Shown here: piece after piece, positions 1,748 to 48,366 of the stretch
Position numbering within the stretch: position 1 is the first letter of the stretch
How the letters are laid out: every line of letters starts with the position of its first letter
NCBI GenBank assembly: GCA_041746575.1
Contig: JBGTGT010000029.1
Span: 1-56,905, forward strand
From: Microcystaceae cyanobacterium
GTDB lineage: Bacteria; Cyanobacteriota; Cyanobacteriia; Cyanobacteriales; Microcystaceae
DNA: 56,905 nt
Direction: 5' to 3'
Made by a program: the position numbers and the translations under genes
The notes under the pieces: model-generated
The model's input: only the letters and a program-made list of their open reading frames with translations
What the model was told of the DNA's origin: nothing
The model's database searches: none

Positions 1748-3343
1748 ATGAAGCCTTGGATGTGTGACGGTATCCCTAAAAATGGCAAAGTTTACCCAAC
1801 AGCGAGTGCAGATGGCCACGAACCCTACGAAAACACAGGGCCAGATTGCTTAATCTGTGGACTCCCTCAAGAAGCGATGGAACAAAGTTCTACCCAAGCC
1901 AAAACAAAAGTGCCTTCATCGGGTAAAACGGTGATGACAGGGGGTAAAACGTCTTGGTTACTCCCCGCTATTCTGGGGGTTGCTCTATTAGGTTTAGTGG
2001 GCGGATTTGCCGCATTTTTTCTATTAAGATCGAATGAAACCGTCATAACCGATAATAATACCCAAAATTCCACCCAATCTTCCAGTCCCTTTGTCAGTGG
2101 TCGTGCCACGAATCCCGCTTTATTCAGTCAAGGAGAAAAGATTCTCCTCGATGTTACGCCCGATAAACAGGCCGGTGCGTCAGCGTTTAGTCAAGAAGAT
2201 TGGGATGGCGCAATCGCCGCCTATCAACAGGCTGCTACTCAAAATCCAAACGACCCAGAGGGCAAAATATATCTTAATAACGCAAAAGCTCGTAAAAGTG
2301 GTTCGCCTTTAACCCTATCTGTTGTTGTTCCCATTACACCAAGTCCTGATTCGTCCAAAGAGATTTTACGGGGAGTCGCTCGTTATCAAGAAGAATTCAA
2401 CCAAGGGGGAGGCAGTGGACAATTGGCAATCGTAATTGCCAACGCCGCCGATGCCTTAAAGGGAGCATCTTTAGCCCAAGATATCATTGATTCTCCTGAA
2501 ATATTAGGTGTTTTAGGTCATGGAGCTGATCCGGGTAGCCAACAAGCCTTAAGACGCTATCAGGATGCCCAAATTGCCGCTTTATCCCCCCTCACCACCA
2601 GCGTCTCTACCGAAGGACAACCTATTCTTAAAATAATTCCGATTGACCAAAAATCCGACGAATTACTAGGTAATTATTTACAAGCTGTCGGAAAAACGCT
2701 AGCGAATCAGGCTAAGAAGCAAGGTGCATCTTCTGCTGTTATTTTCTACAATTCCGATAGTCCCTACAGTCAACAACTCAAACAAAGTTTACAGGATGCG
2801 ACTCAGACAATGGGGGTTAAAGTGACAAAACAAATCGATGTATCTGCGGGCAATTTTAACCCCAATTCAGCAATTAATCAAGAAAAAGTCGGATTTTTAG
2901 CTCTGAGTAAAAATAAAGTTCCTCAAGCAATCGCGATCGCCCAAGCAAACCAAAATGCAGGTTCTCCAATGCGTTTAATGGGAGGTGATGAATTATACAA
3001 TCCAGACACCCTAATTCAAGGGGGAGATGCCATTAATGGTCTAATTTTAGCGGTTCCTTGGCGTTTTCAACCGAATGATCCTTTCGCTCAAGATGCCGTT
3101 CAAAGTTGGAAAGGTCGAGTCAGTTGGCGCACAGCAACGGCCTATGATGCAACGCAGGTAATGGCAGATACTGCTCACAAGACACCGAACCGAAGTGGCA
3201 TTTATCAAGCTTTAAACCAAGGCGTATCATTAAAAACGAAAACCACTGATTTTGGTATTTTTAATGAAGTTCCCCTCGTAGAAGCGATTAGCGGCAAAAA
3301 TGGGCCACCGGGATCTCAATATCAATTTAGTCCTCTGCAGTAA
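1748..3343 (+). CDS. Membrane-anchored type-1 (branched-chain amino acid-like) substrate-binding protein with a TPR-like segment and a Cys/His N-terminal motif
   Basis: TM helix WLLPAILGVALLGLVGGFAAFFLL; NPNDPEGKIYLNNA; LRGVA..Q; VSWRTATAYDA. Confidence 0.8.
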   Translation: MKPWMCDGIPKNGKVYPTASADGHEPYENTGPDCLICGLPQEAMEQSSTQAKTKVPSSGKTVMTGGKTSWLLPAILGVALLGLVGGFAAFFLLRSNETVITDNNTQNSTQSSSPFVSGRATNPALFSQGEKILLDVTPDKQAGASAFSQEDWDGAIAAYQQAATQNPNDPEGKIYLNNAKARKSGSPLTLSVVVPITPSPDSSKEILRGVARYQEEFNQGGGSGQLAIVIANAADALKGASLAQDIIDSPEILGVLGHGADPGSQQALRRYQDAQIAALSPLTTSVSTEGQPILKIIPIDQKSDELLGNYLQAVGKTLANQAKKQGASSAVIFYNSDSPYSQQLKQSLQDATQTMGVKVTKQIDVSAGNFNPNSAINQEKVGFLALSKNKVPQAIAIAQANQNAGSPMRLMGGDELYNPDTLIQGGDAINGLILAVPWRFQPNDPFAQDAVQSWKGRVSWRTATAYDATQVMADTAHKTPNRSGIYQALNQGVSLKTKTTDFGIFNEVPLVEAISGKNGPPGSQYQFSPLQ

Positions 3344-3376
3344 TATCAATACAGACAATATTATGACTCATAACAA

Positions 3377-3398
3377 AGCCCCCTATTGCTAGAGGGCT
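3377..3398. terminator. Hairpin between convergent genes
   Basis: AGCCC-C-CTA-ttgc-TAG-A-GGGCT. Confidence 0.45.
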
Positions 3399-3416
3399 AT
3401 TAAAGTTTGAATTAAT

Positions 3417-5429
3417 TTAGCCTAGTAACGCTTTTGCTTTCGTCAAAACATGCTCAGCGTTAAAGCCAAACTTCTCCATACAAGTGCCGCCCGGTGCAGA
3501 AGCCCCAAAGGTGTCAATACTGACCGTATCACCCTCAGAACCGATGTACTTATGCCAGCCTAAGCTAACGCCAGCTTCCACCGATAACCGCTTCGTTACC
3601 GCTTTAGGTAACACCGATTCTTTGTAGTCGGTATCTTGCGCTTCAAATAATTCCCAAGAAGGCATAGAAACCACTCGTACCTTTTTCCCTTCGCTAGTCA
3701 GTTTTTCGGCGGCAGTAACACAAAGACTGACTTCTGACCCCGTTCCCATCAAAATAAGGTCGGGTGTTCCTTCACAATCCATCAGCGTGTAAGCCCCTTT
3801 GGCGACGCCTTTGATCGTGGTTTCTGAGAAGTTAGGCACCGCTTGACGAGTGAACGCTAACAGGGTGGGACGATTCTGCTTAGCATTCTCAATTGCCACT
3901 TTATAAGCTCCAGAAGCCTCCGTGCCATCACAGGGACGAATCACCGTTAAATTGGGAATCGCCCGTAAAGAGGAAAGGGTTTCAATGGGTTGGTGAGTGG
4001 GGCCATCTTCCCCTTGTCCGATAGAATCGTGAGTCATAACCCAAATCACGCCAGCTTCAGACAAAGCAGAGAGACGAATGGCCGCCCGCATATAATCGGT
4101 AAAGATTAAGAAGGTTGCACCATAGGGTATCAATCCTGAATCATGAAGGGCAATTCCGTTACAAATGGCGCCCATAGCGTGTTCACGTACCCCAAAGTGA
4201 ATATTGCGGTTTTGAAACTGGCCTTTTTGGAAATCCTCTGATACTTTGAGTTCAGTCAAGTTAGAGTGGGTTAAATCTGCCGAACCCCCTAATAATTCGG
4301 GTAAAACAGGGGCTAATTTATTGAGACAATTTTCTGAATGTTTCCGAGTGGGTAAGGCTTTGTCTTCCGCCGTGTAAGTGGGTAATACGCTGTCCCAACC
4401 ATCGGGCAGTTTACCACTAAGATAACGCTCAAACTCAGCCGCCTCAGCCGGATATTTTGCTTTGTATTGAGCAAAAGCTTGATTCCATTCTGCTTCGTAG
4501 CTGGCACCCCGTTCAATCGCTTTACGGGTATGATCTAGCACATCGCTCGGAATATCAAAGGGTTCATAATTCCAACCCAGTTTTTCGCGGGTTAAGGCCA
4601 CTTCATCAGTCCCTAACGCAGATCCGTGAACGCCTGCTGTATTCGCTTTATTGGGAGAACCATAACCGATAGTGGTAGTCACCTTAATCATAGAAGGCTT
4701 ATCGGTAACGGCTTTGGCCGCTTCAATGGCTTTAGCGATCGCTTCTAAGTCCGTGTTGCCATCTTCAACGTGGAGAACGTGCCAACCGTAAGCTTCAAAA
4801 CGTTTGCTTACATCTTCGGTAAAAGCAACGTCGGTGGAACCATCAATTGAAATATGGTTATCATCATAGAGGGCAATAAGCTTGCCTAAGCCCCAGTGAC
4901 CGGCAATGGAGGACGCTTCACCTGAAACGCCTTCCATATTACAACCATCTCCTAAGATCACATAAGTATAGTGATCAACAATGGTAGCATCAGGTTTATT
5001 AAACTGAGCCGCTAAATGAGCTTCTGCCACCGCTAATCCCACTGCATTGGCGATGCCTTGACCAAGAGGGCCGGTGGTCACTTCTACGCCGGGGGTTTCA
5101 AAATTTTCAGGGTGTCCGGGAGTTTTGGAACCCCACTGACGAAATTGCTTAATTTCTTCAATAGTGACACTGTTGTAGCCCATCAGGTAAAGTAGAGCAT
5201 ATTGTAACATACAGCCATGGCCAGCCGACAGGACAAAGCGATCGCGGTTAAACCATTTGGGGTTTTTGGGATTAAAACGCATAAATTGATCCCACAGCAC
5301 GAAAGCCATAGGAGCCGCCCCCATCGGCAAGCCAGGATGTCCTGATTTGGCTTTTTCAACGGCATCAATCGCTAAAAATCGAATGGAATTAATGCAAAGT
5401 TCTTCAAGGGATTGGCTAGCAACGACCAT
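3417..5429 (-). CDS. tkt: Transketolase
   Basis: [26 protein letters not shown] (ThDP motif), EDGPTHQP; start moved to ATG 5429 ([11 protein letters not shown]). Confidence 0.97.
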
Positions 5430-41156: not shown

Positions 41157-42614
41157 ATGAATCATCCTTTAAAGTGGTTGGGTTTATTATTGATCTCGTT
41201 GTTATTGGTGGTGGGAATGCGACTACCGGCAATTGCCCAAAACCCTCGTCATTACACGGATTTAACCTTTCCAACCCTTCGGGAAATTACCCTGCCTCAG
41301 TACGAACGCTATCAACTGAAAAATGGCATGGTCGTTTATCTAATAGAAGATCACGAGTTGCCCTTAGTGGGCGGAAGTGCGATGATTCATACGGGAGGTC
41401 GTCTTGAACCGGCTGATAAGCTAGGATTAGCTCAATTAACGGGAACGGTGATGCGGAGTGGTGGCACACAAGACCATTCGTCATCGGAATTAAATGAAAT
41501 CTTAGAGCAACTAGCGGCTTCTGTGGAAAGCGGAATCGATACAGATGTGGGAATTGTCGGCTTTTCAGGTTTGAGTCAGGATACTTCGACTATTTTTCCT
41601 CTTTTTACTGAAGTTATTCGCTATCCCATCTTTGAGCCTCAACAGTTAACCCTTGCGAAAACCCAATTACAGGGTGCAATTGCTCGTCGTAATGACGATC
41701 CCGGTGATATTGCTAGTCGGGAGTTCCGTAAGCTTATTTATGGCGAAAATAGTCCTTATGCTCGAACGATTGAGTACAAAACCCTTGATAATATTAAAAG
41801 AGAAGATTTACAACAGTTTCATCAAACTTATGTGCGTCCTGACCAAATTATCCTCGGCATTGTCGGCGATTTTGATCCTGTCAAGATGAAACAGTTAATT
41901 AATGATAATCTGGGCCAATGGGAAGCTCCGCAGACCCCGGCGGCGATTGATGTACCTTCTGCTACTCAGAAAATAAAACAAGGCATCTTTTTGGTCAATC
42001 AACCCCAATTAACCCAAAGTAATATTCGCTTAGGACATCTCGGTGGCGAGTTAAATAGTCCTGATTATCCGGCGTTAACCGTGGTCAATGGGGTGTTAAA
42101 CGGTTTTACCGGACGATTATTTAATGACCTGCGATCGCGCCAAGGGTTGGCCTATACGGTTTACGGAGTCTGGAATCCAGCTTACGACTATCCCGGTCTG
42201 TTTCTGGCAGGTGGCCAAACGCGCTCTGAAACCACAGGGCAGTTCATCCAAGCGTTAGATCAAGAGATTGGACGTCTGCGGACAACACCGATTACTCCTG
42301 AAGAATTAACGCTCGCTCAAGATTCTATTTTAAACTCTTTTGTCTTCAAATTCGAGAATCCCAGTCAAACCCTCAGTCGTTTGATGCGCTATGAATATTT
42401 TGGTTATCCATCGGATTTTATCTTTCAGTACCAAGCGGGCGTAAAAGCAACTACTATTGAGGATGTAGAACGAGTTGCCCAAAAATACTTAAACCCAGAC
42501 CAATTCGTCACGTTGGTGGTGGGAAATGCCCAAGAAACTGAACCCCTTTTAACGCAACTAGGAGTAGAAGTTCAATTTGTCGATATCGCCATTCCCCTAC
42601 CCAGAGAGGGTTAA
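41157..42614 (+). CDS. M16B peptidase-like subunit (non-catalytic type), secreted
   Basis: Signal peptide, LKNGMVVYLIEDHELPLV, LRSRQGLAY; no HxxEH motif seen. Confidence 0.88.
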   Translation: MNHPLKWLGLLLISLLLVVGMRLPAIAQNPRHYTDLTFPTLREITLPQYERYQLKNGMVVYLIEDHELPLVGGSAMIHTGGRLEPADKLGLAQLTGTVMRSGGTQDHSSSELNEILEQLAASVESGIDTDVGIVGFSGLSQDTSTIFPLFTEVIRYPIFEPQQLTLAKTQLQGAIARRNDDPGDIASREFRKLIYGENSPYARTIEYKTLDNIKREDLQQFHQTYVRPDQIILGIVGDFDPVKMKQLINDNLGQWEAPQTPAAIDVPSATQKIKQGIFLVNQPQLTQSNIRLGHLGGELNSPDYPALTVVNGVLNGFTGRLFNDLRSRQGLAYTVYGVWNPAYDYPGLFLAGGQTRSETTGQFIQALDQEIGRLRTTPITPEELTLAQDSILNSFVFKFENPSQTLSRLMRYEYFGYPSDFIFQYQAGVKATTIEDVERVAQKYLNPDQFVTLVVGNAQETEPLLTQLGVEVQFVDIAIPLPREG

Positions 42615-42658
42615 TCTTGGGATTCAAAAAGCGACTGTTGGAGTTGCGCAGAGGATTT

Positions 42659-43402
42659 ATGAGAATTAAGTTAATTAATCCCAATACAACAGCCAGCATG
42701 ACCCAAAAAATTGAAACGGTGGCCAAAAAAGTTGCCTATCGGGATACGGAAATTATTGCTTGTCATCCGGCAATGGGGCCAGTTTCTATTGAAGGACATT
42801 ACGATGAGGCGTTGAGTGTCATCGGTATTTTAGAGGAGATTCATAAAGGAGAAAAAGAAGGCATTGATGGCTATATTATTGCCTGTTTTGGAGATCCCGG
42901 TTTATTAGCGTCCCGTGAAGCCACTGCACAACCTGTTATGGGTATTGCTGAAGCCGCTATGCATACTGCCAGTTTATTGGCGACGGGATTTTCCATTGTG
43001 ACGACCTTAAGTCGAACTCGGATTATTGCCGAGCATTTGGTTAAAAATTACGGAATGACCCCTTTTTGCCGCAAAATTCGGGCAATTGATCTCCCTGTCT
43101 TAGATTTGGAAAATGCAGTTTCTTCTTTGGCGAAGGAGCAACTGATGGCAGAATGTCGTCGAGCGTTAGCAGAGGATGGCTCAGGAGCAATCGTACTAGG
43201 GTGTAGCGGAATGGCAGATTTAGCGACAGAAATTAGCCAAAATTTAGACGTTCCTGTGATTGGCGGTGTGAGTGTGGCGGTTAAATGGATGGAAGGATTA
43301 ATTAGTTTAGGACTGAAAACCAGTAAAGTGGGCGATTTGGCTTTTCCGATTGCCAAACCCTATCAAGGCATTTTACAGTCGTTTTCTCCTTTTTCGTCTT
43401 AA
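42659..43402 (+). CDS. Allantoin/hydantoin racemase (Asp/Glu racemase family)
   Basis: INPNTTASMT, SIEGHYDE, ACFGDPG, LGCSGM. Confidence 0.9.
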   Translation: MRIKLINPNTTASMTQKIETVAKKVAYRDTEIIACHPAMGPVSIEGHYDEALSVIGILEEIHKGEKEGIDGYIIACFGDPGLLASREATAQPVMGIAEAAMHTASLLATGFSIVTTLSRTRIIAEHLVKNYGMTPFCRKIRAIDLPVLDLENAVSSLAKEQLMAECRRALAEDGSGAIVLGCSGMADLATEISQNLDVPVIGGVSVAVKWMEGLISLGLKTSKVGDLAFPIAKPYQGILQSFSPFSS

Positions 43403-43544
43403 AACCCTTAGTGAATGGTTTTTGGATAACAGTAGTTAACTGGATCAGAAGCAATCTTTATGTAATTATTACATTAAATCATTGCAATTTTAGGAGAAAG
43501 CGTGGGATTTTCGGTCTATCTCCCTAGCTTTTAGCTCAATTTTC

Positions 43545-43560
43545 TGTAACAATAGATACA
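43545..43560. promoter_or_regulatory. NtcA-type site
   Basis: TGTA-acaataga-TACA matches GTA-N8-TAC, upstream of nitrogen-scavenging genes. Confidence 0.65.
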
Positions 43561-43704
43561 TAAGAGAAATCGTTCATCTCTCTTTCATTCACCTCTTTAC
43601 GAATACAAGAGTGAAAAAGAGAAACGGAAGTAGGAAATAGAATTCCGAAGGAACGCAAAGTTAAACAACGTTCAAAACTTTAATTCCTAGAAGGAGATAA
43701 TAAT

Positions 43705-43830
43705 ATGCAAAAATATCAATGGAAACAGTATCAAACCTTAGAATTGATTCCTGCCACCGTGACGAATCCTGCCAGAATGTCATTTCCCTTGAGTCAATCC
43801 TTGACCTTTCTATGGCGATCGCTAGTTTAG
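43705..43830 (+). pseudogene. 5' fragment of a cyanobacterial hypothetical gene, ending just after a HIP1 site
   Basis: AAGGAG RBS then MQKYQWKQYQTLELIPATVTNPARMSFPLSQSLTFLWRSLV*. Confidence 0.55.
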
Positions 43831-44303
43831 GAACGTTACGAATCAACGCACAAACCGCTCAAGGCTCTCGCTTAACGAAAGAAACAGAACTCGGTAAACA
43901 ATTGGCTGACTATGGGCAAAATCAGCAATTAATTGCCGATCTAAAGTCAGGAGCGAAACTAACCACTCATGTACTCGATACGGCTTCAGGTGATCCCGCC
44001 ATGGGAATGCGGATTGATTTTTCCGTCTTAGAAGGCGATCGCTATCGTCTGATCAAAACCCTTTATACCAATGTCGATGGACGCACAGATGAACCCTTAT
44101 TAAGTCCTGAAGAAATAAAAGTAGGGCGCTACGAACAAATTTTTTATGTGGCAGATTACTACAACAAACTAGGAACAAAACTGCCTAATCCGCCTTTTAT
44201 TGACCAAGTTCCCTTGCGTTTTGCGATTTTTGATTCAACTCAGAGGTATCATGTTCCCTTACTATGTAAGCCTTGGAGCTACACCACCTATCGAGGAAGC
44301 TAA
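43812..44303 (+). CDS. uraH: 5-hydroxyisourate hydrolase (transthyretin-like); native 5' end probably lost
   Basis: LTTHVLDTASG, TNVDGR, YHVPLL, C-terminal YRGS. Confidence 0.9.
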   Translation: MAIASLGTLRINAQTAQGSRLTKETELGKQLADYGQNQQLIADLKSGAKLTTHVLDTASGDPAMGMRIDFSVLEGDRYRLIKTLYTNVDGRTDEPLLSPEEIKVGRYEQIFYVADYYNKLGTKLPNPPFIDQVPLRFAIFDSTQRYHVPLLCKPWSYTTYRGS

Positions 44304-44431
44304 TACTCATTCTCATCCAGTTGACGAGAGATGATAGTGAGGAGATCAATGTATTGCTTGATTGCGCAGAATTAGCATAAAAACGCGTTAATAGGCAATT
44401 TGTTTTTATTTTGTGTGTGAGGACTTCATTT

Positions 44432-46096
44432 ATGAGTGTTTATCTGTTATTGACGACTTTTTTATCGAGTTTTTGTCTTTTTAGTACGAGCTTACTGTCA
44501 CAGGAAACAACCTTAGCGCAATCGAGTGTGCCAAGACAAGTGAGGATAGATCAGTTAAAATCTCAGGGATTTCAAACAGTAAATGCGCCTATGTCCCAAA
44601 TTCCCTCTGTTTTTCAATTGAGGGATGTTCAGCCGAGTGAGTGGGCGTTTGAGGCTTTGCGATCGCTAGTGGAACGCTATGGGTGCATTGTCGGATATCC
44701 TGATCAAACCTTTCGGGGCGATCGTGCCGTAACCCGTTGGGAATTTGCCGCCGGATTAAATGCGTGTTTGAACACGATAGAAAGGCTATTACGAGAGAAC
44801 GTCGCAGTTTCACAAGAAGATATTGATAAATTAAAGCGTTTAGCTGTAGAGTTTCAGTCGGAATTAGCGGCTTTAGGCACAAGAGCCGATAATTTGGAGT
44901 CACGGGTGGCTTATCTCGAAGACCATCAATTTTCTACTACCACCAAACTTTACGGTCAGGCGATTTTTGCCCTTGGGGGGGCATTTGGCGGCAATCAAGC
45001 GGTTTCTGGTCGTCCTGTCTTACCTGCGCTTCCGGGAGAATCAGGAGATGCCGGGGATAATACAACGCCTGTTACCAAAGATATTAGTAACAACGTCTTT
45101 TTATCTGATAGAGTGCGATTGGTGTTAGATACCAGCTTTAATGGCAAAGATTTACTCAGAATGCGGATGCAAGCCGGAAATACCCCCGATTTAGCTGAAA
45201 CAACGGGAACGAGGATGGCGCGCTTATCCTTTACGTCTCCGACGGATAACGATGTGGTGATTAACAAATTAGAGTATCGCTTTCCAATTGGGGATAAAGG
45301 GATGGTTTTTGTAGAAGCCTTTGGATTTTTGGATTTATTTGCTCCAACCTTACACCCCCTTGATGGCGACTATGACACGGTATTAACAGGATTTAGTTTG
45401 CGGAGTCCTATTTATTTCCAAAGTGGGTTAACGGGCATCGGCGTCCATTATAATTTTACTGACTTCTTTAGCTTTAGTGGGGGCTATCTTGCGGGAGATG
45501 CGACGGCAGGAAACCCAGAAACGGGACCTTTTAACGGTTCTTACGGAGCGTTAGCGCAATTAACCTTTTATCCCACTGACGAATTGGCTTTTGCTTTTAC
45601 TTATCTCAATGGTTACGATAATGGAACAGGCAATGCACCTGCTGGGGGCTTTTTTGGCAGTGAAAATGCAACATTTCCCTTTGGTTTTGTACCGACTTCT
45701 TATAATTCCTATGGCATTGAAGCCCAATATGAATTTAGTCCGAATTTTCTCTTAAGTGGTTGGGTGGGATGGACAAAAGCCACCAATGAAAGCCAAGAAA
45801 ATAAAGGAGCAGATGCAGATTTGTTTTATTGGGCGGCCACTTTATCTTTTCCTGATTTGTGGCAGGAAGGCAATCTAGGCGGTATTATTGTTGGTCAACC
45901 TTCAACCGTAACCAGCAACGAATTACGGGATTTTCAAGACCCCGATAGTGCCATTATGATAGAAACCTTTTACCGTTATATGATCAATAACCACATCGGC
46001 GTTACTCCCGGTTTTGTTGTTATTTTCAACCCTGAAAGTAATAGTGCAAATAACACGATTTATTTAGGCGTTATTCGGACTCATTTTAAGTTTTAA
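44432..46096 (+). CDS. SLH-domain/OprB-type cyanobacterial outer-membrane porin
   Basis: LRDVQPSEWAFEALRSLVERYGCIVGYPD, FSTTTKL, C-terminal RTHFKF. Confidence 0.93.
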   Translation: MSVYLLLTTFLSSFCLFSTSLLSQETTLAQSSVPRQVRIDQLKSQGFQTVNAPMSQIPSVFQLRDVQPSEWAFEALRSLVERYGCIVGYPDQTFRGDRAVTRWEFAAGLNACLNTIERLLRENVAVSQEDIDKLKRLAVEFQSELAALGTRADNLESRVAYLEDHQFSTTTKLYGQAIFALGGAFGGNQAVSGRPVLPALPGESGDAGDNTTPVTKDISNNVFLSDRVRLVLDTSFNGKDLLRMRMQAGNTPDLAETTGTRMARLSFTSPTDNDVVINKLEYRFPIGDKGMVFVEAFGFLDLFAPTLHPLDGDYDTVLTGFSLRSPIYFQSGLTGIGVHYNFTDFFSFSGGYLAGDATAGNPETGPFNGSYGALAQLTFYPTDELAFAFTYLNGYDNGTGNAPAGGFFGSENATFPFGFVPTSYNSYGIEAQYEFSPNFLLSGWVGWTKATNESQENKGADADLFYWAATLSFPDLWQEGNLGGIIVGQPSTVTSNELRDFQDPDSAIMIETFYRYMINNHIGVTPGFVVIFNPESNSANNTIYLGVIRTHFKF

Positions 46097-46115
46097 TTTT
46101 AAGGAGAGAACTTTC

Positions 46116-46965
46116 ATGAAAACACACAAAAGCTTACAACCTTATTTATTGGCAATGCCACAAACCTTGATTTTTCTCTTGTTTTTGGTACTGCCTATTT
46201 TATTGTTATTGTTAGTTTCTGGAACTTTAATGGCTTTGCTATGTCCCCAGGATTTACCCTTGATAATTATTGGGGAATTTTTACCTCAAAGGTTTACTTT
46301 CTACTTATTTAAATACAATTAAATTTGCTTTTTTGGCTTGGTTAATTTGCCTTTTAATTAGTTATCCCGTTGCTTATTTTTTAGCGTTTCATGTTAAAAG
46401 TGCGAAATGGCAAACGTTATTATTCCTCATTTGTACTGTCCCTTTTCTGACCTCAAACATTATTCGTATGATTGCGTGGATTCCTTTTCTGGGTCGAGAA
46501 GGATTACTCAATCAAGCGTTAATGGGATTAGGTTTAATCAAGCAACCGATTGAAATGTTTTTATTCTCTGATTTTGCGGTTATTCTAGCAATGGTACAGC
46601 TTTATGTCCTATTTATGGTTGCTCCTATCTTTAATAGTATGGTACGTATTGATCGCGCTTTAGTATCAGCCGCCGAAGACTTAGGAGCATCGGGTTTTGA
46701 CATTCAAAAAGACATTATCTTACCGTTATCTGCTCCCGGTATCGCCATTGGTTCAATTTTTGTGGTTACCTTAGTGATGGGTGAATTTGCTACGATGCGC
46801 CTGATGAGTGGAAAGAAAACGTCTTCAGTCGGATATTTAATTAAAAACCAAATTGATAGTCTGCAATATCCCTTAGCGGCGGCGAATGCCGTGGTTTTAT
46901 TACTCCTTGCTTTACTGGTTGTTTCTGCAATTTTAAGAACGGTTAATATTCGAGAGCAAATTTAA
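46116..46965 (+). pseudogene. PotB-like ABC permease with two frameshifts
   Basis: First frame to about 46200 (..VLPI), second frame IVIVSFWNFNGFAMSPGFTLDNYWGIFTSKVY to about 46300, third frame STYLNTIKFAF... with AAEDLGAS EAA loop. Confidence 0.8.
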
Positions 46966-47059
46966 TAAAAAGTTGTCAGTAATTAGAAATAAATTCTCAA
47001 CATCTGAACACCTTGTAACTCCTGTCATTTCCAACACTTATTTAAAAAGGAAAAAATTC

Positions 47060-47875
47060 ATGAGTAATCGCAAAAAATCCCTATCCAGTTATCTTCTTGC
47101 CGGCTTTTTCGGTTTATTCGTTTTGTTTCTCTATGGTCCGATGTTTGCCATGTTTTTGTTGTCTCTTCAAGGACCAAAAGGAACGCTAACATTTCCGATG
47201 AAAGGGTTTAGTTTTTATTGGTTATTTTCGGTTTTTGGAGAACAACGAGTGGGTAATTTTGTTACTGCATTTCAACGCTCTTTTTCTTTAGCTATTATTG
47301 TGGCTTTAGTTACGGTTGTTTTTAGTGTCTTAGCAGGATTAGCTTTCCGCAAGCGTTTTAAAGGTTCAAATGGGATTTTTTATCTCACTATTTCGAGTTT
47401 AATTGTGCCAAGTATTTCAGTCTCTTTAGGCATTGGTATTTTATTTGGCTTAATTAATTTACCGATTCAATGGTTTACCACCGCTTTAGCCGGACATTTA
47501 ACATGGACAATTCCCTTTGCTTTTTTGATTATGTTGGGCATTTTCAGCCGTTTTAATCCTTCCTATGAAGAGGCGGCGAGAGATTTAGGCGCAAGTGAAA
47601 TAACGACCTTTTGGGAAGTGGTGTTTCCCCTGATTGCCGCTAGTGTGATTGGGGTGGGTTTACTCGGTTTTACTTTATCTTATGATGAATTTACTCGAAC
47701 CTCTTTAATTTCGGGTGAAACAAATACCTTACCTTTAGAAATCTTTGGTATGACGACGAATGTAACTTCTCCCGCCCTCTATGCTTTGGGAACATTAACC
47801 ACCCTATTTTCTTTTATTCTGATTGGGGTTGCTTTGTGGATTATTCAACGCTTAAACCCTCGTCAACCGGAGTAA
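47060..47875 (+). CDS. PotC-like ABC permease
   Basis: LFLYGPM, EEAARDLGAS, TLSYDEF, TLPLEI. Confidence 0.9.
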   Translation: MSNRKKSLSSYLLAGFFGLFVLFLYGPMFAMFLLSLQGPKGTLTFPMKGFSFYWLFSVFGEQRVGNFVTAFQRSFSLAIIVALVTVVFSVLAGLAFRKRFKGSNGIFYLTISSLIVPSISVSLGIGILFGLINLPIQWFTTALAGHLTWTIPFAFLIMLGIFSRFNPSYEEAARDLGASEITTFWEVVFPLIAASVIGVGLLGFTLSYDEFTRTSLISGETNTLPLEIFGMTTNVTSPALYALGTLTTLFSFILIGVALWIIQRLNPRQPE

Positions 47876-47901
47876 ATTTCATTTTTTAGCTTAATTGTTG
47901 G

Positions 47902-47930
47902 AAAAAAAAGACATTCTCTATGGAGAATGC
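47902..47930 (-). terminator. psbK terminator
   Basis: CATTCTC-tatg-GAGAATG hairpin with an 8-nt T-run on the minus strand. Confidence 0.6.
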
Positions 47931-47961
47931 CTCATTTGTGCATTTTGGATGCTTCAGAAAC

Positions 47962-48099
47962 TTATTTAAACCCTACGGAGGCTTGCCAAACGAAAGCAAG
48001 TAGTAAAAAGAATAGGGGAATAATCGGCAGAACATCCACTAAGGGATCAAAAATTTGGTAAGCTTCTGGCAATTTTGCTAATAGAATGGCTAATTCCAT
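47962..48099 (-). CDS. psbK: Photosystem II subunit K (45 aa; absent from the ORF track)
   Basis: [50 protein letters not shown] upstream. Confidence 0.98.
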
Positions 48100-48366
48100 C
48101 TTCCTTTTATCCTTCCCAACACAGTTTTTAATAGATTAAAGACATCCTACCATGATTTGCTCCTCGTCATCGGTCAAGTTTACAAGGGGAAATAGAGAGA
48201 AAAATGTTTTGACTCAATCGGATTAACCCCTACGCAATTGTACCCTTAACCTCAGCCAAATGCCTTCAAGCCTTGTCTCTTTAAAAGTTACGAGCGATAG
48301 ATGTCAAAAAAGTTAAATTTATTTACAATAGCCTCAATCGCTAACATCCTCAATCACTATTTCAAC

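What the first reader, a model, noticed from the sequence alone, without database searches (positions are those of the whole stretch)
43691..43900. Apparent gene chimera with its junction on a HIP1 octamer
Seen: a strong RBS (AAGGAG) and ATG 43705 start a frame (MQKYQWKQYQTLELIP...LTFL-WRS-LV*) that stops 8 nt after GCGATCGC (43815-43822). Through and after that octamer a different frame reads AIASLGTLRINAQ-TAQ, like the tail of a signal peptide, and continues into a complete UraH domain. The ORF-track N-terminus (METVSNLRIDSCHRD) looks like out-of-frame sequence. Established: HIP1 sites have been linked to precise deletions in cyanobacteria (smtB in Synechococcus). Inference: recombination between two HIP1 copies deleted the intervening DNA. 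That would place the uraH-porin-ABC genes under a borrowed NtcA-box promoter and create ATG 43812 for a leaderless UraH. The left fragment resembles, from memory only, a cyanobacterial family with a Y..LELIP N-terminus.
Basis: partly seen in the sequence, partly recalled or inferred. Interest (0 to 1): 0.72.

Follow-up and report, generated by a model that had tools for sequence, protein, structure and literature searches.

The report
HIP1 seam in decaying purine operon
Two broken genes of a cyanobacterial purine-uptake cluster, a small gene behind a glutamine-sensing RNA switch and an enzyme gene that has lost its export signal, are joined out of frame at the abundant 8-base HIP1 word, most likely the scar of one deletion that also removed two transporter genes, so this is ordinary decay by a known route and likely not a new working gene.

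Summary
The chimera is real. The 41-aa ORF is the front half of an unnamed cyanobacterial small-protein family (93-141 aa; E 2.6e-8) and carries its own NtcA-type box and glutamine riboswitch. Two intact homologs have the same leader and HIP1 at the same codons. The downstream frame is a hydroxyisourate hydrolase whose relatives begin with a twin-arginine signal; here only the signal's tail is left. Scoring both frames puts the break at 43815-43832, on or just after HIP1. The ABC ATPase and binding protein, which precede these permeases in 13 of 13 related loci, are missing from the genome, and one permease has two frameshifts. Best reading: a deletion by crossover in a HIP1-centred microhomology (0.6). 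Not shown: HIP1 in an intact uraH gene, or an intact ancestral locus. The promoter is probably active under nitrogen plenty and belongs to the same cluster type, so it is not a useful borrowed one. The scan noted HIP1 at deletion scars before, on other DNA (e1-9868515). Side lead: the intact riboswitch-controlled family appears undescribed.

The parts
42659..43402 (+). Asp/Glu/hydantoin racemase gene, likely allantoin racemase; open frame, same cluster
   Evidence: PF01177 188 bits; 65-70% identical to racemases beside the same ABC genes in relatives; substrate inferred from context
43546..43559 (+). NtcA-type box (GTA-N8-TAC), 10 nt before the riboswitch; likely repressing position
   Evidence: sequence; 13 of 14 letters shared with the boxes of G208 and G332; polarity inferred from PMC6212724
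43569..43659 (+). Type-1 glutamine riboswitch aptamer (RF01739)
   Evidence: 48 bits, gathering 35, E 2.1e-7, full model
43691..43696 (+). Ribosome binding site AAGGAG, 8 nt before ATG 43705
43705..43830 (+). 41-aa ORF: front half of a small-protein family gene ('family X', 93-141 aa when intact), cut after WRSLV
   Evidence: profile positions 6-50 of 93, E 2.6e-8; no other copy or back half in the genome
43815..43822 (.). HIP1 octamer read as WRS in the left frame and AIA in the right frame
   Evidence: both frames score positive here
43813..43836 (.). Junction zone: left-gene homology ends by 43827, uraH homology is certain from 43836-43848
43812..44303 (+). uraH remnant: junction-made ATG 43812, tail of a twin-arginine signal without its RR (43815-43853), linker, intact HIUase domain (43959-44297) ending in YRGS
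44432..46096 (+). SLH/OprB-type porin gene, open frame
   Evidence: NF033921 572 bits, PF04966; 53-58% identical to cluster porins of relatives
46116..46965 (+). PotB-like ABC permease pseudogene: 4-nt deletion near 46201 and 1-nt deletion near 46299
   Evidence: alignment with 4 intact orthologs; same letters in run contigs
47060..47875 (+). PotC-like ABC permease, open frame, without ATPase or binding protein

Best explanation
The 41-aa ORF and the uraH frame are halves of two different genes joined out of frame at HIP1, most likely by one deletion in which a HIP1 in the small gene (WRS codons) crossed over with a HIP1 presumed in the signal-peptide codons of uraH (AIA). Shown: both halves are truncated, the break lies at 43815-43832, the back half of the small gene and the ABC binding protein and ATPase orthologs are not found in the genome, and one permease has two frameshifts. 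Inferred: the ancestor read racemase, riboswitch-small gene, ATPase, binding protein, exported UraH, porin, two permeases, and scavenged a urate/allantoin-type purine product; the deletion took out the stretch between the two octamers by illegitimate recombination over 8-13 matching bases; the importer was dead before or after this; what is left would be transcribed from a promoter that NtcA represses, with a 41-aa stub made when glutamine is high and at most a little signal-less UraH made by re-initiation at ATG 43812, which has no ribosome site of its own and is redundant with the cytosolic uraH on contig C75.
For: Left half: profile match ends at WRSLV, LE-to-W spacing 25 as in 71 of 105 family rows, scores negative after 43827; G208 and G332 share box, riboswitch and 14 of 15 letters around HIP1. 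Right half: closest homologs carry RR signals; in their register AIA scores 9.5 bits and sits 11 codons before the AQ site as in 10 of 10 clade-I rows, 6 of which have exact AIA; everything 5' of the octamer scores negative except one Asn; tree places the domain among these signal-bearing proteins, outside clade II and away from the cytosolic copy. AIA is coded by HIP1 in 775 of 1199 cases in this genome. Missing genes: ATPase and binding protein lie just upstream of (porin)-potB-potC in 13 of 13 loci; binding protein has no hit in G000 (99.78% complete) while 2 of 2 control genomes hit; ATPase best hits 41-47% against 85% for potB. Decay. Precedent: 352-bp HIP1-flanked excision at smtB (PMC13756078, passages).
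Against: No DNA of a clade-I signal-bearing uraH was found, so the second HIP1 is inferred; the 2 clade-II genes with DNA lack it, and the clade-II register gives AIA no support and instead matches LS upstream of the octamer. The 5 letters after the octamer match the left gene (4 of 5), the best single break is 43827-43829, and the signal's invariant Pro is Gly here, so the true break may lie up to 14 nt downstream. Ungapped DNA identity over the 45 nt before HIP1 is only 12-13 of 45. The W score is inflated because rows were anchored on that W. No related locus shows the proposed ancestral order, and none of 13 has a signal-bearing uraH; the small gene lies tail to tail with potC in 7 of 13 and upstream in the same direction in only 2.
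Confidence: 0.6

Rival explanations
1. Same deletion, but the break lies a few bases downstream of the left gene's own HIP1; the octamer comes from the left gene alone and reads AIA in the other frame by accident. HIP1 was either a bystander or a one-sided cut site.
For: Left-gene match continues 5 letters past the octamer; best break 43827-43829 in all three registers; codons 43824-43832 fit the signal family poorly; no intact uraH with HIP1 seen.
Against: Needs two coincidences: a break within about 14 nt of one of only 1-2 HIP1 in a 426-nt gene, and a landing point in uraH that puts AIA exactly in the clade-I register.
Confidence: 0.2
2. HIP1 crossover, but not a simple deletion: an inversion between the two palindromes turned uraH-porin-permeases round under the small gene's promoter (or a foreign uraH-porin piece was captured at HIP1), and the reciprocal half with ATPase and binding protein was lost later.
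For: HIP1 is a palindrome; riboswitch plus small gene face potC tail to tail in 7 of 13 loci, including the two with HIP1 at the same codons; inverting that order between the two sites gives exactly the window's order from riboswitch to potC. The cluster is patchy: potC, the family and close uraH are in 0 of 27 sampled genomes of the own family, close uraH in 0 of 88; the porin is divergent.
Against: No reciprocal junction: 86 nt separate potC from psbK and they do not resemble the expected spacer (82 and 32 of 200 shuffles score as well); no back half in the genome. It needs a further move to put the racemase upstream, whereas racemase-ATPase-binding protein-permeases in one direction is seen in 7 of 13 loci, including the two closest by potC.
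Confidence: 0.15
3. One gene with a one-base frameshift or an assembly error: the 41-aa ORF is the true N-terminus of UraH.
For: A single missing base before the octamer would join the two frames.
Against: The ORF belongs to a separate family with its own C-terminus; no UraH homolog starts that way; four run contigs give the same letters.
Confidence: 0.02

Closest known systems
HIP1-flanked 352-bp excision at smtB in Synechococcus PCC 6301 (Gupta et al. 1993, as cited in PMC13756078; passages seen, original not read)
   Same: Loss of DNA with one HIP1 left at the joint; proposed illegitimate recombination between two octamers.
   Different: There both parental sites were seen in laboratory strains and the loss was selected; here it is a natural fixed scar, the second site is inferred, the lost piece is likely several kb, and two genes are fused out of frame.
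gifB/IF17 leader of Synechocystis PCC 6803: type-1 glutamine riboswitch plus NtcA repression (PMC6212724; abstract, passages, part 1 of 3 of the supplement)
   Same: RF01739 aptamer in front of a small gene, NtcA-type box just upstream.
   Different: The gene is not DUF4278/IF17: intact family members hit no Pfam family at cut-off and sit in purine clusters. Switch direction was not shown here.
Periplasmic 5-hydroxyisourate hydrolase / transthyretin-like proteins (PMC4324301, passages; PDB 4q14, 8uw4)
   Same: Full HIUase domain with YRGS end; genome has both a signal-type and a cytosolic copy, as described for several bacteria.
   Different: Signal is of RR type in the relatives and is cut here; activity untested.
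PotABCD-type ABC importer cluster with racemase and porin of other cyanobacteria (G141, G069, G208, G332 and others)
   Same: Permeases 70-85% identical, same order porin-potB-potC.
   Different: ATPase and binding protein missing, potB frameshifted, uraH present in the cluster.

Membership tests
HIP1-bounded deletion | One exact HIP1 at the junction | tested here: met
   43815-43822 inside the scored break zone 43815-43832
HIP1-bounded deletion | HIP1 at the homologous place in the left parent | tested here: met
   4 of 30 homologous loci plus L174; these are relatives, not the ancestor
HIP1-bounded deletion | HIP1 at the homologous place in the right parent | tested here: inconclusive
   AIA in 6 of 10 clade-I proteins, 65% of AIA is HIP1-coded; no clade-I DNA found; 0 of 2 clade-II genes
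HIP1-bounded deletion | Intervening DNA present in an intact locus and gone here | tested here: inconclusive
   Expected genes missing from the genome but no locus with both genes in this order
HIP1-bounded deletion | Homology switches exactly at the octamer | tested here: inconclusive
   Both frames positive on the octamer; left match runs 5 letters further
Type-1 glutamine riboswitch (RF01739) | Full-length covariance match above gathering score | tested here: met
   48 bits against 35
Type-1 glutamine riboswitch (RF01739) | Glutamine binding frees the ribosome site (ON switch) | tested here: inconclusive
   Folding with and without P1 forced gave mean unpaired 0.60 against 0.55; binding not testable
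IF17/DUF4278 glutamine synthetase inactivators | DUF4278 domain | tested here: not met
   No such hit in the ORF or in the intact homologs scanned
5-hydroxyisourate hydrolase (TIGR02962) | Score above cut-off and C-terminal YRGS | tested here: met
   111.6 against 87.45; YRGS and aligned His/Arg kept; YRGS signature per PMC13751858
Twin-arginine exported protein | RR motif before the hydrophobic stretch | tested here: not met
   RR (RK in 2 rows) in the close homologs, none in the window; Tat assignment of homologs is by motif, Pfam TAT_signal only E 0.14 in 1 of 5
Working ABC importer | ATPase, binding protein and two intact permeases | tested here: not met

The most novel reading that the evidence does not exclude
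The joint is a kept, HIP1-built regulatory fusion: it puts a now cytosolic hydroxyisourate hydrolase and a porin under the glutamine-ON, NtcA-OFF leader of an undescribed family of small nitrogen-status regulators of purine salvage, showing HIP1 as a natural seam for promoter capture in cyanobacteria.
Probability: 0.08. Interest if true: 0.65.

Novelty: new member of a known kind. Interest (0 to 1): 0.33.

Why it matters
What HIP1 does is still open (PMC5861425, PMC13756078, passages), and the link to deletions rests on a few laboratory cases; my searches listed no paper on natural gene chimeras at HIP1. This locus is a fairly clean natural case in which the break can be placed from two protein families, but it is one event, the second site is inferred, and any 8-base repeat this common can seed such deletions. 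The more useful by-product is the intact family: 34 of 400 sampled genomes of the order, often behind a glutamine riboswitch and NtcA-type box and inside purine clusters. If it works like IF17, it would be a small brake on purine-nitrogen salvage when nitrogen is plentiful (my estimate about 0.3; untested; searches listed nothing on it).

Tried and rejected
DNA search of 40 relatives found no orthologous locus, only the box/riboswitch and cytosolic uraH. Same-genus G001 and G002 are 70-81% identical, lack racemase and binding protein and have the flanking genes on separate contigs, so no empty-site comparison and no genome-wide breakpoint test was possible. The 41-aa ORF as a single query found nothing among longer proteins. 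Short family-like proteins (12 inspected) end at different places, so 41 aa is not a conserved length; the split copy in G404 is a frameshift with no HIP1 nearby. Structure prediction of the family gave pLDDT 58, pTM 0.22: no fold search made. Protein atlas gave no answer. Riboswitch folding did not show the switch direction. Promoter/terminator scan was at chance level. No RNA holder listed. Run X5 holds only two short identical pieces, away from the junction. Private substitutions at otherwise invariant columns are not clearly raised in racemase, potB, potC or uraH (5, 5, 2, 4), so protein drift does not date the decay. PMC306751 is not held.

Full report
Observation. The sequence is as described: ribosome site 43691-43696, ATG 43705, a 41-aa ORF stopping at 43830, HIP1 at 43815-43822, and a second frame 43719-44303. 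HIP1 is common (26 in the window; 1780 in the genome). Contigs of runs X1 and X2 cover 42400-48200 whole, X3 covers 42989-44351 and X4 43587-43857, all with no differing letter; the four are one study and three may be the source.

Left half. The ORF matched 3 of 60 relatives weakly. Those matches are 93-94 aa proteins; an alignment of 17 found the family in 34 of 400 genomes of the order and matched the window at profile positions 6-50 of 93 (E 2.6e-8), and 101 representatives at E up to 0.001, including 140-aa forms. No Pfam family reaches cut-off. The genome holds no second copy and no back half. Of 30 homologous loci read, 4 have exact HIP1 at the WR(S) codons, 10 have a riboswitch-like pattern upstream, and 9 of those 10 an NtcA-type box against 1 of the other 20; Rfam confirmed the riboswitch in 6 of the 20 of these loci that I gave it and found 8 in 7 further cluster loci. 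The window's own riboswitch scores 48 bits. G208 and G332 align with the window from the box through the riboswitch to the octamer plus five letters. Against: ungapped identity over the 45 nt before HIP1 is 12 and 13 of 45, and over the 55 nt after the shared stretch 22 and 17 of 55, so DNA alone does not place the break sharply; by DNA score other loci match the leader as well as these two.

Right half. The domain is a hydroxyisourate hydrolase. Its best homologs are 160-178 aa with an RR signal ending in AQ. A tree of 23 domains puts it with these (88/90), outside the clade-II group (100/98) and far from the cytosolic copy on C75. Nothing aligns with residues 1-31 of the 194-aa frame.

Break point. 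Position scores for the two frames (99 family rows; 10 clade-I and 7 clade-II signal rows) show the left frame positive to 43827 and mostly negative after, and the clade-I signal positive on AIA (9.5 bits) and on R and AQ, negative before the octamer. The best single break is 43827-43829, with 43815-43832 within about 6 bits under clade I. Under clade II the AIA match disappears and LS upstream of the octamer scores instead. The overlap of two positive readings on the octamer is what a crossover inside shared letters leaves. AIA is written as HIP1 in 775 of 1199 cases in this genome, so a parental uraH with AIA probably had one, but I could not see such a gene: nine searches failed apart from two clade-II genes, which lack HIP1 there.

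What was lost. The permease has close homologs in 37 of 400 genomes. I read 14 stretches from 13 of them, picked mostly from the top hits. In 13 of 13 stretches with potC an ATPase and a binding protein precede (porin)-potB-potC; the racemase lies upstream in the same direction in 7; a porin lies between binding protein and potB in 7. In the window the junction sits where ATPase and binding protein should be. The binding protein has no hit in G000 and the ATPase only 41-47% paralogs. potB has a 4-nt and a 1-nt deletion against 4 intact orthologs. potC differs from G141 at 104 synonymous and 43 non-synonymous codons, so the cluster was under selection for most of its history and the decay is likely recent. 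The rest of the purine pathway (urate hydroxylase, permease, cytosolic uraH, OHCU decarboxylase, allantoinase-type gene, amidohydrolase) has strong matches on other contigs.

Geometry. A plain deletion needs the small gene upstream of the ATPase in the same direction, seen in 2 of 13 stretches, though not directly after the racemase. The commoner order, 7 of 13, is tail to tail with potC; an inversion between two palindromic HIP1 sites would then give the window's order, but there is no reciprocal joint in the 86 nt before psbK and the racemase would need a separate move. I put deletion via HIP1 at 0.6, deletion with a bystander HIP1 at 0.2, inversion or capture via HIP1 at 0.15.

Consequence (inferred). 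In Synechocystis gifB this aptamer raises protein synthesis when glutamine binds, and NtcA sites near the -10 element repress (PMC6212724, abstract and passages). The cloned gifB leader starts 9 nt before the aptamer (supplement part 1 of 3); the same offset here would put the start near 43560, right behind the box. The leader would thus be on under nitrogen plenty, the wrong logic for scavenging genes. Folding did not confirm the direction. ATG 43812 arises from left-gene letters, has no ribosome site, and overlaps the stub's stop by 19 nt, so coupled re-initiation is possible; the product lacks RR and would stay in the cytosol. No RNA data were available.

Known or new. A HIP1-flanked 352-bp excision at smtB is the precedent (PMC13756078). 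PMC4390886 (passages) reports site-specific recombination in PCC 7002 and low-efficiency illegitimate recombination in PCC 7942 and E. coli, which argues that no cyanobacterium-specific enzyme is required; a preprint reports HIP1 raising transformation and possibly recombination (10.1101/2024.09.10.611283, passages). The scan has noted HIP1 at deletion scars in another cyanobacterium (e1-9868515) and other scars in this genome; I did not test those. Klahn et al. say some aptamers precede genes without Pfam match; Tables S1 and S2 (parts 2-3 of the supplement) were not read and may list this family's loci. Verdict: a real, well-placed chimeric scar of a known kind in a decaying cluster; interest 0.33, with the intact riboswitch-controlled family as the lead worth following.

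Noticed in passing
L173:7148-7689, L174:157-699, L131:9899-10283, L178:14307-14705 and others: Intact family X (93-aa and about 140-aa forms, plus 104-121 aa relatives sharing the C-terminal part) sits behind a glutamine riboswitch and NtcA-type box inside purine/allantoin clusters; no Pfam family; possible IF17-like small regulator. 34 of 400 genomes; low-confidence helical model.
   Followed up: partly
window 46116-46965: potB-like permease has two separate frameshifting deletions; the first lies in codons where 4 of 4 aligned orthologs carry a HIP1, but the window's letters there do not derive simply from it.
   Followed up: partly
G000 contigs C84 (33750), C102 (16334), C105 (4149): Three more glutamine-riboswitch-like patterns in the genome, each before a small ORF; the one on C102 precedes two short ORFs that look like glutamine synthetase inactivators (recalled resemblance, pattern match only).
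   Followed up: no
P0002-P0008, P0010, P0014, P0018, P0019; L129:9697-10233; L130:1562-2047: A rare cyanobacterial group of HIU hydrolases with RR signals (2 of 400 genomes); in G224 and G143 it lies among two-component genes, not in a purine cluster.
   Followed up: partly
G000 contig C40 4170-5362: A second xanthine/uracil-type permease matches in two pieces, likely frameshifted: further decay of purine uptake.
   Followed up: no
L206 (G404:C1, about 3232-3491): Family X copy with an early stop and a frameshift, no HIP1 at the break.
   Followed up: yes
window 44432-46096: The porin has 86 private changes at columns invariant in 7 cluster porins, far more than the neighbouring genes; it may come from another lineage together with uraH.
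   Followed up: no
window 42441-42454: A second GTA-N8-TAC box inside the M16 peptidase gene, about 200 nt before the racemase start; may be chance.
   Followed up: no
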